Of a DNA stretch of 5,273 bases, positions 2,692-4,009 are shown piece by piece. A model generated the notes under the pieces. That model ran no database searches and was not told the origin of the DNA. It saw only the letters and a list, made by a program, of their open reading frames with translations. The translations under genes and the position numbers were made by a program. Source of the DNA: a virus (Duplodnaviria > Heunggongvirae > Uroviricota > Caudoviricetes); the IMG/VR virus record IMGVR_UViG_2636415418_000002; one strand, 5' to 3'. The first letter of the stretch is position 1; each line of letters opens with the position of its first letter.

Positions 2692-2846
2692 CGCATCCTC
2701 ACGATAATATCCGGGTAGGCGCGATCACTTTCATCTACTCCGTTACAAAGCGAGGCTGGGTATTTCCCGGCCTTTCTGTTATCAGAAATCCACTGAAAGC
2801 ACAGCGGCTGGCTGAGGAGATAAATAATAAACGGGGGGCTGTATGA
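2688..2846 (+). CDS. Small hypothetical protein (52 aa), positional equivalent of lambda orf60a
   Basis: Not in the ORF track. Hand translation gives [52 protein letters not shown]. Its ATG overlaps the exo stop (ATGA at 2688-2691) and its stop overlaps the next gene's ATG (ATGA at 2843-2846). Lambda likewise has a small ORF overlapping the exo stop. Confidence 0.5.
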
Positions 2847-3400
2847 CTGATTTCACCGGAAGCAATACTCCTGCCGAACATCGCGACAGCTGGCGCACAC
2901 CACCAGAGATTTTTGCTGCGCTTAATGCAGAGTTCGTTTTTCAACTTGATGCTGCAGCCAGCGAAAAAAACCGACTATGTCGGCTTTTTATCTCACAGGA
3001 GCAGAACACATTAACCACTTCATGGCCTGAAGCAATGGGATATGCCTCTGGTTATGTCTGGTTGAATCCACCATACAGCAATATTTCCCCTTTTGTGAAA
3101 AAGGCAGCCACTGAAAACAAATTCAGTAGTGTGGGATGTGTAATGTTATTGCCTGCTGACACATCTGTCGGATGGTTTCATGAAGCGATACAAACCGCCA
3201 GTGAGGTCAGATTCATCACGGCAGGACGACTGGCATTTATTAACCCACTCACCGGGAAACCCGTCAGTGGAAATAATAAAGGCTCGATGCTCATTATCTG
3301 GCACCCATACCCCCGTACACACTGCCACTTTACGACCGTTGATCGTGGAGAGTTGATGGCGTTCGGCTCAAGGATTCTTGCCCGTCGGGAGGCTGCATGA
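2843..3400 (+). CDS. Putative phage DNA N6-adenine methyltransferase (small Dam-like orphan MTase), 185 aa
   Basis: Contains the (D/N)PPY catalytic motif in WLNPPYSN, and an N-terminal WRTPPEIFAALNAEFVFQLDAAAS segment that resembles the WxTP...LDxAA signature I associate with the phage 'Dam' methyltransferase family (Pfam PF05869, from memory). No adjacent restriction endonuclease candidate is visible. Confidence 0.75.
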   Translation: MTDFTGSNTPAEHRDSWRTPPEIFAALNAEFVFQLDAAASEKNRLCRLFISQEQNTLTTSWPEAMGYASGYVWLNPPYSNISPFVKKAATENKFSSVGCVMLLPADTSVGWFHEAIQTASEVRFITAGRLAFINPLTGKPVSGNNKGSMLIIWHPYPRTHCHFTTVDRGELMAFGSRILARREAA

Positions 3401-3480
3401 CAACCACGGAATGCATTTTTCTGGCAGCGGGCTTCATATTCTGTGTGCTTATGCTTGCCGACATGGGACTTGTTCAATGA
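3397..3480 (+). CDS. 27-aa hydrophobic micro-protein (single predicted TM helix)
   Basis: Not in the ORF track. Hand translation gives MTTTECIFLAAGFIFCVLMLADMGLVQ*. A strong SD, GGGAGG (3386-3391), lies 5 nt before the ATG. The ATG overlaps the MTase stop and the stop overlaps the orf71 ATG, both as ATGA. Codons (ctg, gcg, ggc, gcc, gac) are better here than in the alternative long frame. Confidence 0.45.
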   Translation: MTTTECIFLAAGFIFCVLMLADMGLVQ

Positions 3481-3692
3481 CACCTCAGCAGGAAAACGCC
3501 CTTCGCAGCATTGCCCGTCAGGCTAATTCTGAAATCAAAAAAGCCAGACAGCAGTTTCCGGATAAAAACGTCGATGACATTTGCCGTAGCGTACTGAAGA
3601 AGCACCGCGAAACGGTAACGCTGATGGGATTCACACCGACTCATTTAAGCCTGGCGATCGGCATGTTAAACGGCGTCTTTAAGGAGCGATGA
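3477..3692 (+). CDS. Hypothetical protein, 71 aa
   Basis: ATG at 3477 overlaps the orf27 stop. Translation is MTPQQENALRSIARQANSEIKKARQQFPDKNVDDICRSVLKKHRETVTLMGFTPTHLSLAIGMLNGVFKER*. The track's 3378 start is a TTG and the in-frame ATG at 3411 lacks an SD and would overlap orf27. Product not recognised. Confidence 0.55.
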   Translation: MTPQQENALRSIARQANSEIKKARQQFPDKNVDDICRSVLKKHRETVTLMGFTPTHLSLAIGMLNGVFKER

Positions 3693-3784
3693 ACATGAAA
3701 AGCAAAATCATCAGGGAGCTACAGGCTCCTTTTTTATTATTCGCATTCACCCTCAAGCGTATTAACCAACAATTCAGGGATTAA
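3689..3784 (+). CDS. Possible 31-aa micro-ORF (uncertain: it contains a terminator-like hairpin)
   Basis: Not in the ORF track. Hand translation gives MNMKSKIIRELQAPFLLFAFTLKRINQQFRD*. Its ATG (3689-3691) overlaps the orf71 stop (3690-3692) as ATGA. A hairpin plus T-tract inside it is the competing explanation for this stretch. Confidence 0.3.
   Translation: MNMKSKIIRELQAPFLLFAFTLKRINQQFRD
3714..3741 (+). terminator. Terminator-like hairpin (GGAGC-tacag-GCTCC) followed by TTTTTTATTATT
   Basis: Seen directly: a 5-bp stem (3715-3719 pairing with 3725-3729), extendable by one G-U pair, then six T at 3730-3735. The stem is short, so this is a weak intrinsic terminator at best. It overlaps the orf31 candidate. 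Confidence 0.3.
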
Positions 3785-3790
3785 TGGAAG

Positions 3791-4009
3791 ATGGCAGACA
3801 TCATTGATTCAGCATCAGAAATCGAAGAATTACAGCGCAATACAGCAATAAAAATGCGTCGTCTGAACCACCAGGTTATATCTGCCACTCATTGTTGTGA
3901 GTGTGGCGATCCCATAGATGAACGAAGACGCCTGGCCGTTCAGGGTTGTCGGACTTGTGCAAGTTGCCAGGAGGAGATCGAACTTAAGAACAAACAATGG
4001 GGATTGTGA
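3791..4009 (+). CDS. TraR/DksA-family C4 zinc-finger protein (probable RNA-polymerase secondary-channel binder), 72 aa
   Basis: The segment CCECGDPIDERRRLAVQGCRTCASCQ shows the CxxC-G-x-P-I-x-E-x-R-R ... CxxC pattern characteristic of TraR/DksA. Its size matches TraR-like proteins of F plasmid and lambdoid phages. Only a weak SD (AGGGA) lies 10 nt upstream. Confidence 0.75.
   Translation: MADIIDSASEIEELQRNTAIKMRRLNHQVISATHCCECGDPIDERRRLAVQGCRTCASCQEEIELKNKQWGL

What the first reader, a model, noticed from the sequence alone, without database searches (positions are those of the whole stretch)
3397..3480. 27-aa hydrophobic micro-protein with a near-consensus SD, hidden between the MTase and orf71
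MTTTECIFLAAGFIFCVLMLADMGLVQ is essentially one transmembrane helix. It has the best SD in this block (GGGAGG, 5-nt spacer) and ATGA overlaps on both sides. Phage-encoded single-helix peptides often act on membrane targets, for example in superinfection exclusion or as modulators of membrane proteases or transporters. It falls below standard ORF-calling thresholds.
Basis: partly seen in the sequence, partly recalled or inferred. Interest (0 to 1): 0.4.

Follow-up and report, generated by a model that had tools for sequence, protein, structure and literature searches.

The report
Unannotated 27-residue gene in lambda-like prophages
A 27-codon reading frame wedged between two early genes of lambda-type prophages looks like a real, conserved gene for a tiny greasy (probably membrane) peptide that standard annotation, including that of phage lambda itself, misses or reads in the wrong frame.

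Summary
The ORF is there as described: ATG 3397 to TGA 3480, MTTTECIFLAAGFIFCVLMLADMGLVQ, with GGGAGG upstream (4-nt spacer, not 5) and ATGA overlaps at both ends. It is identical in phage lambda (31008..30925c) and 933W. The block is in 3317 of 5426 complete E. coli genomes. In 267 loci carrying it, the ATG and TGA are always kept. Recurrent polymorphisms are silent in this frame (10/12 in an unbiased sample, P≈4e-5). None are silent in the frame of the annotated 93-aa "Orf61" extension (0/12). The pattern switches to the downstream gene's frame exactly at the ATGA. Three unrelated upstream genes all end in ATGA on its start codon. Best reading: a real early-operon gene under purifying selection (ω≈0.2–0.3), encoding a hydrophobic single-helix peptide. 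It is translationally coupled to its upstream neighbour and feeds ribosomes to the weak start of the 71-aa orf61. Lambda's annotated orf61, and published Δorf61 mutants, span it. Translation, membrane location and target are untested. It has no homologues outside E. coli lambdoid phages, no family and no literature. It has only sporadic "hypothetical protein" calls.

The parts
3387..3392 (+). Shine-Dalgarno GGGAGG for the micro-ORF, embedded in the last codons of the MTase gene, 4 nt before the ATG
   Evidence: Sequence. Anti-SD duplex -10.3 kcal/mol, the strongest of the window start sites scored. A near-identical GGAGGCnGC precedes the ATG in L007. In orf63 contexts the SD is weaker (-3.1 to -5.6).
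3397..3480 (+). 27-codon micro-ORF (MTTTECIFLAAGFIFCVLMLADMGLVQ) plus its TGA stop
   Evidence: Identical DNA in lambda. ATG and TGA kept in 267/267 loci that carry the block. Recurrent polymorphisms are 10/12 synonymous in the unbiased sample (P=3.8e-5) and 11/17 over all loci (P=6e-4). The antisense frame explains fewer events.
3397..3400 (+). ATGA overlap: the upstream gene's stop (TGA 3398-3400) on the micro-ORF start. It is also the left mosaic junction with lambda-type phages.
   Evidence: Homology to lambda starts exactly at 3397. Three unrelated upstream genes (orf63/DUF1382, N6-adenine MTase, DGQHR protein) all end ...ATGA.
3412..3459 (+). Hydrophobic core of the peptide (C6-A21), the predicted membrane-spanning helix
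   Evidence: Kyte-Doolittle window mean 2.87 over CIFLAAGFIFCVLML. It is flanked by E5 and D22, with no K/R. Inference only: no dedicated TM predictor was available.
3477..3480 (+). ATGA overlap: micro-ORF stop on the start codon of the 71-aa orf61 homologue. It is GTGA in 20 of 267 loci.
   Evidence: The downstream start has a weak SD (-3.9 kcal/mol). The polymorphism periodicity changes frame here.
3477..3692 (+). orf61 homologue, 71-aa form (the downstream, translationally coupled gene)
   Evidence: PGAP calls this start. It starts at the same ATG with its own GAGG SD in the mosaic type that lacks the micro-ORF. Frame-B polymorphisms are 17/25 synonymous. AlphaFold confidence rises only from about residue 21-25 of the 93-aa form, as also reported in PMC8614690.
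2843..3400 (+). Phage N6-adenine methyltransferase, the upstream gene in this window's mosaic type
   Evidence: PHROG 111 at E=5e-78. RefSeq annotation of the identical locus.
3397..3494 (+). Exchangeable mosaic module: the micro-ORF plus the first six codons of orf61
   Evidence: In E. coli 24AR0357, phage PhiR5_1 and 6 further loci this stretch is replaced, and homology resumes at about 3495.

Best explanation
Window 3397-3480 is a genuine protein-coding gene of the early-left (pL, exo-xis) operon of lambda-type phages. Ribosomes start it in one of two ways. They can bind the strong SD that sits in the end of the upstream gene, as in this window. Or they can re-initiate at the ATGA where the upstream gene (orf63 in lambda and Stx phages, the MTase here) terminates. 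The 27-residue product is one hydrophobic helix that most likely partitions into the inner membrane. Its sequence is kept by purifying selection, so the peptide itself has a function, not only the act of translating it. When the ribosome terminates at the second ATGA (or GTGA), it is positioned on the poorly equipped start codon of the 71-aa orf61, so the micro-ORF also couples orf61 translation to the operon. Shown: ORF integrity, frame-specific constraint, conserved overlaps, a mosaic junction at the start codon, and hydrophobicity. Inferred: translation in vivo, membrane insertion, and coupling. Unknown: the molecular target.
For: (1) Substitution pattern in 267 loci: in 3400-3476, 13/24 events are synonymous in the micro-ORF frame (P=0.002). 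For events seen at least twice it is 11/17 (P=6e-4). In the sample anchored outside the ORF it is 10/12 (P=3.8e-5). The 3411/3477 frame scores 4/24, 1/17 and 0/12. This gives ω of about 0.2-0.3, similar to the neighbouring orf61 (17/25, P=7e-6). The adjacent 31-aa ORF region shows no frame signal, so the test discriminates. (2) The periodicity switches frame exactly at 3477. (3) ATG and TGA are kept in 267/267 loci, and the 27-aa peptide is identical in most. In the phage collection, of 176 records matched at E<=10 (one a chance <60% hit), 138 are at least 99% identical. (4) The left homology boundary with lambda is the ATG itself, and three unrelated upstream genes end in ATGA on it. (5) The SD is the strongest of the window start sites scored. 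ATG 3411 has none and ATG 3477 is weak and sometimes GTG. (6) The 71-aa orf61 is autonomous where the micro-ORF is absent. The 22-residue extension of the 93-aa form is low-confidence in AlphaFold (PMC8614690). (7) Four discriminating substitutions are silent here but change the antisense ORF, and one destroys its ATG in 10 loci. (8) No Rfam family and no unusual RNA folding.
Against: There is no direct evidence of translation. The lambda ribosome-profiling paper (Liu et al. 2013) could not be read. As summarised in PMC8614690, it lists new 7-aa and 31-aa ORFs in this region but not this one, possibly because it lies inside the annotated orf61. All copies are at least about 90-95% identical and confined to E. 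coli lambdoid phages, so the selection test rests on only 24 substitution events. The apparently diverged relatives turned out to be noisy assemblies. The hydrophobic core is short (about 16 residues), has no flanking positive charges, and D22 is not invariant. One lineage (L007) has lost the frame and eight loci lack the module, so it is dispensable. The region as a whole is non-essential for lambda growth (PMC10695390; PMC6213356).
Confidence: 0.78

Rival explanations
1. It is only a coupling device. The micro-ORF is translated so that terminating ribosomes re-initiate on the weak orf61 start, and the peptide is a functionless by-product that is quickly degraded.
For: ATGA/GTGA overlap with orf61 in 267/267 loci. 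The orf61 SD is weak (-3.9 kcal/mol) and the start is GTG in 20 loci. Where the micro-ORF is absent, orf61 has its own GAGG SD. The micro-ORF and the orf61 5' end travel as one mosaic module.
Against: A pure spacer ORF would tolerate amino-acid changes, yet recurrent changes are 10/12 to 11/17 synonymous (ω about 0.2-0.3), like a normal gene. Length and hydrophobic character are invariant. No mRNA structure hides the orf61 start in a way that translation would need to open (z = 0.4 and 1.2).
Confidence: 0.12
2. The stretch is the N-terminal 22 residues of a 93-aa Orf61 that starts at ATG 3411, as annotated in 933W (L0070), VT1-Sakai (H0064) and Phi24B. On this view the 27-aa frame is a chance overlapping ORF.
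For: Frame B is open from ATG 3411 in all 267 loci. Many records and PHROG 303 use this form. In L007 an SD-equipped ATG is in frame with orf61 and gives a 93-aa product.
Against: 0/12 (unbiased sample) and 1/17 (all loci) recurrent substitutions are synonymous in this frame, and the changes are radical: G>R, H>Y, H>Y, T>A, F>S. ATG 3411 has no SD (-2.6 kcal/mol with zero spacing), and it is conserved simply because it sits within codons E5-C6 of the micro-ORF. The mosaic type without this stretch starts orf61 at the 3477-equivalent ATG. AlphaFold pLDDT is 40-52 for residues 1-20 against 73-91 afterwards (the same is noted in PMC8614690). PGAP chooses the 71-aa start.
Confidence: 0.06
3. The constrained frame is the antisense one. 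That frame holds the minus-strand ORF 3464->3330 (44 aa here, 61 aa in lambda) and shares its wobble positions with the micro-ORF.
For: 9/17 recurrent events are also synonymous in that frame (P=0.005). A weak promoter-like match lies on the minus strand at 3403-3374.
Against: Its synonymous events are a strict subset of those of the sense frame. All four discriminating events (3414, 3417, 3435, 3462) are silent in the sense frame and change the antisense peptide, and 3462 C>T removes its ATG in 10 loci. The ORF runs across the mosaic junction into unrelated sequence, so its length and C-terminus differ between phages. The promoter-like count is at chance level (2 found against 0.8±0.9 expected).
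Confidence: 0.02
4. It is a non-coding spacer with a chance ORF. The conservation reflects only the recent common ancestry of these phages.
For: All copies are very similar (at least about 90-95%). The window has 90 ORFs of at least 20 aa. The ORF is absent from RefSeq annotation.
Against: Substitutions are not spread evenly: 14 of 24 events fall on one codon position, and by frequency almost all variation is at that position. The neighbouring 31-aa ORF region, equally recent, shows no such pattern. The start, stop and both overlaps are invariant.
Confidence: 0.02

Closest known systems
Small (<50 aa) single-helix inner-membrane proteins of E. coli found by RBS models, comparative genomics and ribosome profiling (Hemm/Storz-type; e.g. 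YohP, AcrZ, MgtS, KdpF, from my own knowledge)
   Same: Size, one hydrophobic helix, missed by standard gene callers, recognised by a good SD plus conservation of the reading frame. Several act by binding a larger membrane protein.
   Different: No sequence similarity to any of them or to any Pfam, NCBIfam or PHROG family. It has no Lys/Arg flanks and a net charge of -2. It is phage-borne, embedded in an operon with overlaps at both ends. Translation and membrane location are not shown.
Translationally coupled overlapping genes (AUGA/UGAUG termination-reinitiation, as in trpB-trpA or trpE-trpD; established knowledge)
   Same: Stop and start codons overlap at both ends. The downstream start has a weak SD or is GTG. 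The overlap is invariant across 267 loci.
   Different: Here the middle cistron is only 27 codons and is itself under amino-acid constraint. Dependence of orf61 translation on it has not been measured.
Lambda exo-xis region genes orf60a, orf63, orf61, orf73, ea22 (Wegrzyn and Donaldson laboratories; PMC6213356, PMC8614690, PMC10869804)
   Same: Same operon, same conservation across lambda and Stx phages, same class of small non-essential early genes that modulate the lysis-lysogeny timing.
   Different: It is not among the five recognised genes. It overlaps the annotated 'orf61' of lambda and the 93-aa form used for Phi24B, so published Δorf61 and frameshift phenotypes cannot be assigned between the two (PMC6213356, PMC4195576).
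Type I toxin peptides (Ibs, ShoB, TisB, DinQ, Hok/Ldr; from my own knowledge)
   Same: A hydrophobic peptide of 18-50 residues, often prophage-associated.
   Different: It has no own promoter or long leader, no antisense RNA family, sits in a coupled operon, and lacks basic residues. Toxicity is untested.

Membership tests
Bona fide protein-coding gene (general criteria) | Reading frame kept intact across relatives | tested here: met
   Of 277 loci, 265 keep the intact 27-codon ORF. Two have Q27stop (26 aa), 8 lack the whole module, 1 has a 14-nt gap (L007), and 1 is a low-coverage contig with a 1-nt deletion. ATG and TGA are kept in 267/267 loci that carry the block.
Bona fide protein-coding gene (general criteria) | Excess of synonymous over non-synonymous change in this frame and not in the other five | tested here: met
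   Sense micro-ORF frame: 11/17 recurrent events synonymous (P=6e-4). Other sense frames: 1/17 and 5/17. Antisense frames: 9/17 (a subset of the sense events), 5/17 and 5/17. Unbiased sample: 10/12, P=3.8e-5.
Bona fide protein-coding gene (general criteria) | Direct evidence of translation (ribosome footprints at the start codon, tagged product, peptide mass spectrum) | not testable with these tools
   Liu et al. 2013 is not held. The peptide is absent from the searchable literature and from the EHEC translatomics supplements.
Small single-pass inner-membrane proteins | Hydrophobic stretch long enough to span the bilayer | tested here: inconclusive
   The core C6-A21 is 16 residues (KD 2.87). 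A 19-20-residue span is possible only if D22 is included (KD 2.33). No TMHMM-type predictor was available.
Small single-pass inner-membrane proteins | Positively charged flank(s) that fix topology (positive-inside rule) | tested here: not met
   There is no Lys or Arg in the peptide. Its only charges are E5 and D22, and D22 is Gly in Lambda_ev110.
Small single-pass inner-membrane proteins | Membrane localisation of the product | not testable with these tools
   Needs fractionation of a tagged product.
Translationally coupled cistron (AUGA reinitiation) | Stop of the upstream cistron overlaps or abuts the start of the downstream one, and this is conserved | tested here: met
   ATGA at 3397-3400 with three different upstream genes. 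ATGA or GTGA at 3477-3480 in 267/267 loci.
Translationally coupled cistron (AUGA reinitiation) | Downstream translation depends on upstream translation | not testable with these tools
   Only indirect support: orf61 has a weak SD (-3.9 kcal/mol) and a GTG start in 20 loci. In lambda the micro-ORF's own SD is weak (-3.1).
N-terminal part of 93-aa Orf61 (933W L0070 / Phi24B vb_24B_7c form) | Amino-acid constraint in the 3411 frame upstream of 3477 | tested here: not met
   0/12 (unbiased sample) and 1/17 (all loci) recurrent events are synonymous. The replacements are radical.
N-terminal part of 93-aa Orf61 (933W L0070 / Phi24B vb_24B_7c form) | Usable initiation site at ATG 3411 | tested here: not met
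   Anti-SD pairing is -2.6 kcal/mol with zero spacing.
Type I toxin-antitoxin peptide | Dedicated antisense/regulatory RNA and own transcription unit | tested here: not met
   No Rfam match at E<=1. The antisense promoter-like match is at chance level. The ORF is overlapped at both ends by operon genes.
Known phage membrane or exclusion proteins, defence systems | Sequence membership in a described family | tested here: not met
   The PHROG best hit has E=0.68. Pfam gave none, NCBIfam E=0.034 below its cut-off, PADLOC none, PDB none.
Lipoprotein / secretory signal peptide | Basic n-region and a lipobox or signal-peptidase site | tested here: not met
   From the sequence: there is no basic residue and no L-[AS]-[GA]-C lipobox. 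The peptide ends 5 residues after the hydrophobic core.

The most novel reading that the evidence does not exclude
The conserved exo-xis block of lambda and Shiga-toxin phages contains a sixth, unrecognised gene for a 27-residue membrane peptide. In lambda the 71-aa orf61 is broken by a poly-A frameshift, so this peptide may be the only intact product of the interval called 'orf61'. It would then be responsible for at least part of the phenotypes published for Δorf61 and orf61 frameshift mutants (delayed development after induction, altered lysogenisation, reduced adsorption of Phi24B). It might act through a host membrane protein or through the helix-binding groove proposed for the Orf63 dimer.
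Probability: 0.25. Interest if true: 0.65.

Novelty: new member of a known kind. Interest (0 to 1): 0.5.

Why it matters
Phage lambda is the reference temperate phage, and this block sits in 61% of complete E. coli genomes, including the Stx phages of EHEC. If the micro-ORF is real, three things follow. First, lambda's 'orf61' annotation is a wrong-frame chimera, and the 93-aa Orf61 used for modelling carries 22 residues that are probably not part of the protein. Second, deletion and frameshift phenotypes assigned to orf61 need to be re-partitioned between two genes. Third, the early operon makes a hydrophobic peptide during the lysis-lysogeny decision whose target is unknown. It is also a clean example of how population-level polymorphism can validate a micro-gene that has no distant homologues.

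Tried and rejected
1. Distant homologues. DNA 'distant' search, tblastn of the peptide, protein search with orf61 and three collection scans found nothing outside E. coli lambdoid phages. The 51-73% 'relatives' (P0069, P0075, P0036) are indel-ridden assemblies or an IS-disrupted copy. Hits in Shewanella, Pseudomonas and similar genomes are lambda contamination.

2. Family and structure libraries for the peptide (PHROG, Pfam, NCBIfam, PADLOC, PDB sequences) gave no significant match. The search for homologous proteins refuses queries under 40 aa, and structure prediction needs at least 30 aa.

3. RNA explanations. There is no Rfam hit, and the folding energy is no better than shuffles.

4. Fold of the neighbour Orf61. 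Foldseek against the PDB gave no match with E<1. The 'ZapA' name is a sub-threshold Pfam hit.

5. Literature. Liu et al. 2013 and Casjens & Hendrix 2015 are not held. The peptide string appears in no paper and not in the EHEC translatomics supplements.

6. A -1 frameshift fusion of the helix to Orf61 was considered and rejected. There is no slippery heptamer near the 3' end, and frame B is unconstrained upstream of 3477.

7. My first positive control on orf61 was biased, because the loci had been selected for 100% Orf61 identity. I repeated it on a sample anchored on a 40-mer and excluded the anchor.

Full report
**What is in the window**

The window is the early-left arm of a lambda-type prophage. 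It carries, in order:
- bet (1229-2014)
- exo (2011-2691)
- a DUF1317/orf60a gene (2682-2846)
- a phage N6-adenine methyltransferase (2843-3400)
- the 27-codon ORF (3397-3480)
- a 71-aa orf61 homologue (3477-3692)
- a 31-aa ORF (3689-3784)
- a TraR/DksA zinc-finger gene (3791-4009)
- DUF4222 and an excisionase-like gene

It is 100% identical to prophages of E. coli strains DAM and ANT, and 99.6% identical to the prophage next to tRNA-Thr/proA in E. coli B, BL21, REL606 and C.

**Observation**

The only correction is that the SD spacer is 4 nt, not 5. The SD pairs with the 16S 3' end at -10.3 kcal/mol, the strongest of the 11 window start sites scored among 15 contexts. ATG 3411 scores -2.6 and ATG 3477 scores -3.9. 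The peptide has GRAVY 1.62 and is the most hydrophobic of the 27 ATG-ORFs of 20-40 aa in the window. An ORF of this size is not unusual on its own, since the window has 90 ORFs of at least 20 aa.

**The same ORF is in phage lambda**

Homology between the window and lambda begins exactly at the ATG (3397 = lambda 31008), and the 84 bases are identical. In lambda the upstream gene is orf63 (DUF1382), whose TGA also overlaps this ATG.

Lambda's annotated orf61 (31024..30839c) starts inside orf63 and reads the other frame through the micro-ORF. It is then cut short by an A7 run where this window and most relatives have A6 at 3537-3542. So lambda 'orf61' is a wrong-frame chimera of a broken gene. 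PMC8614690 also notes that lambda Orf61 looks truncated and unstructured.

None of the records inspected annotates the 27-aa ORF. These were lambda, lambda imm21, phage 434, VT1-Sakai, Lambda_ev110 and RefSeq E. coli. They use either the 71-aa start (PGAP, phage 434) or the 93-aa start at the 3411 equivalent (933W L0070, VT1-Sakai H0064). The exact peptide does exist as an unnamed 'hypothetical protein' in some GenBank records and in UniRef (A0A0A2SGE8_ECOLX).

**Distribution**

The block is in 3317 of 5426 complete E. coli genomes (4710 places). In the phage collection, 179 records carry the block by DNA and 175 carry the peptide itself, among them lambda, 434, HK630, 933W, VT2-Sakai and Min27. 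Nothing outside E. coli lambdoid phages was found. Apparent distant relatives were noisy assemblies, an IS-disrupted copy, or lambda contamination of unrelated genome assemblies.

**Is the frame under selection?**

Divergence is low, so I used polymorphism. I analysed 277 loci that span the region:
- 265 have the intact 27-codon ORF.
- 2 end one codon early.
- 8 lack the module entirely.
- 1 (L007) has a 14-nt gap.
- 1 low-coverage contig has a 1-nt deletion.

In all 267 loci that carry the block, the ATG and the TGA are kept.

There are 24 distinct substitution events in 3400-3476. The table gives the fraction that are synonymous in each sense frame.

| Events counted | Micro-ORF frame | 3411/3477 frame | Third frame |
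|---|---|---|---|
| All 24 events | 13/24 (P=0.002; expected fraction 0.25) | 4/24 | 6/24 |
| Seen at least twice | 11/17 (P=6e-4) | 1/17 | 5/17 |
| Seen at least twice, 40-mer anchor sample (unbiased for this ORF) | 10/12 (P=3.8e-5) | 0/12 | 2/12 |

The same test gives 17/25 (P=7e-6) for orf61 in its own frame. It gives no signal in any frame for the 31-aa ORF region. The periodicity of variation changes frame exactly at 3477. The implied ω is about 0.2-0.3, like orf61.

The antisense frame that shares wobble positions captures only a subset of the signal (9/17). All four discriminating events favour the sense frame, and one of them destroys the antisense ATG in 10 loci.

**Gene boundaries**

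Three unrelated upstream genes all terminate with TGA overlapping the micro-ORF ATG: orf63 in two or three allele groups, the MTase, and a DGQHR-domain gene in Escherichia sp. E1V33.

The downstream overlap is ATGA in 247 loci and GTGA in 20. In 8 loci, including E. coli 24AR0357 and phage PhiR5_1, positions 3397-3494 are replaced by the end of a 250-aa gene. In those loci orf61 starts at the same ATG with its own GAGG SD. This shows that the 71-aa form is the autonomous gene and that the micro-ORF plus the orf61 5' end is an exchangeable module.

AlphaFold on the 93-aa form gives pLDDT 40-52 for the first 20 residues and 73-91 afterwards, matching the remark in PMC8614690. In 95 of 267 loci a TGA in frame B at 3408-3410 excludes the lambda-type upstream start.

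**The exception**

L007 shares GGAGGCnGCATGACAA with the window and then lacks 3404-3417. This places the SD-equipped ATG in frame with orf61 and yields a 93-aa product. I read this as a deletion that inactivated the micro-ORF in one lineage. An alternative alignment makes it a junction at the 3411 ATG. Either way it is one locus in about 280.

**Mechanism**

The best-supported picture has three parts:
- The gene is translated from its SD or by reinitiation at the upstream ATGA.
- The product is a single hydrophobic helix whose sequence matters.
- Its termination hands ribosomes to the weak orf61 start.

No RNA family or unusual structure competes with this. The peptide is atypical for small membrane proteins. 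It has no basic residue, a core of about 16 residues between E5 and D22, and one lineage has A21S and D22G. Its target cannot be inferred. There is no family, defence-system or structure match, and the neighbour Orf61 has no informative fold match.

A speculative partner is Orf63, for which a helix-binding groove has been proposed (PMC10869804). However, the micro-ORF persists in this window without orf63.

**Consequences for the literature**

The exo-xis literature counts five conserved genes (PMC10869804, PMC8614690). The Δorf61 constructs replace the annotated orf61 of lambda and Phi24B (PMC6213356), and so remove most or all of the micro-ORF. The position of the 1-bp frameshift made in lambda orf61 (PMC4195576) is not stated in the passages I read, so its effect on the micro-ORF is unknown. 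The pro-lytic and adsorption phenotypes are therefore not assignable to Orf61 alone. As summarised in PMC8614690, the lambda ribosome-profiling study reported extra 7-aa and 31-aa ORFs in this region but not this one. I could not read the original paper.

**Verdict**

This is a conserved, selected, unannotated micro-gene of lambda-type phages. Its kind is familiar (a small hydrophobic phage protein, translationally coupled), so it is a new member of a known kind with unknown function. Its interest is raised by sitting inside a mis-annotated gene of phage lambda and the Stx phages.

Noticed in passing
window 3537-3542 (lambda J02459 about 30868-30862c; L001 941-947): Lambda has A7 where this window and most relatives have A6. 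This frameshifts the 71-aa orf61 after 22 codons. Lambda's annotated 61-aa 'orf61' is therefore a truncated gene read from an upstream start in orf63. All independent lambda records checked share the extra A.
   Followed up: partly
window 3689-3784: A 31-aa ORF (MNMKSKIIRELQAPFLLFAFTLKRINQQFRD) has an ATGA overlap on the orf61 stop and a strong SD (AAGGAG, -8.4 kcal/mol). It is probably the 'orf2313' reported as translated in lambda. Yet its polymorphisms show no frame-specific constraint (4/10 recurrent events synonymous), unlike the 27-aa ORF.
   Followed up: partly
window 3713-3741: A terminator-like hairpin (AGGGAGC-TAC-AGGCTCCTT followed by a T run) lies inside the 31-aa ORF, between orf61 and the TraR-like gene. 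It corresponds to the predicted 't2' of PMC4195576.
   Followed up: no
L008-L021 (GTDB genome contigs of Shewanella, Pseudomonas, Bradyrhizobium, Chromatium, Paenibacillus, Kitasatospora, Oceanobacillus and others): Contigs that carry the lambda A7 allele over the region compared appear in assemblies of unrelated bacteria, several of them about 48.4-48.5 kb long. This is almost certainly lambda DNA contamination of those assemblies.
   Followed up: no
L007 371-1438 (Escherichia sp. E1V33): A 355-aa DGQHR-motif (DndB-like) gene occupies the place of orf63/MTase directly upstream of the micro-ORF start. It ends ...TEAA* with the same GGAGGCnGCATGA as the MTase here. A 14-nt gap then fuses the micro-ORF start to orf61.
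   Followed up: partly
L192 123-875, L193 123-875: A 250-aa hypothetical gene replaces orf63 plus the micro-ORF in a minority mosaic type (8 of 277 loci). Its function was not examined.
   Followed up: no
window 3477-3692 and RefSeq homologues: RefSeq names many Orf61 homologues 'cell division protein ZapA'. The only support seen is a sub-threshold Pfam ZapA hit (16 bits against a cut-off of 23.8, E=0.014), and Foldseek against the PDB finds nothing significant.
   Followed up: partly
protein cluster of the 27-aa peptide (P0082, P0083): Two 428-aa glycosyltransferase-like proteins are listed as members of the same 90% cluster as the 27-aa peptide. This looks like a clustering artefact.
   Followed up: no
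window 3397-3400, 3477-3480, 3689-3692, 2843-2846, 2011-2014, 2688-2691: Most genes from bet to the 31-aa ORF are chained by 4-nt ATGA overlaps. The exo/DUF1317 junction is a 10-nt overlap or an ATGA at 2688, depending on the start chosen. This suggests that the whole block is translated as a coupled series.
   Followed up: no
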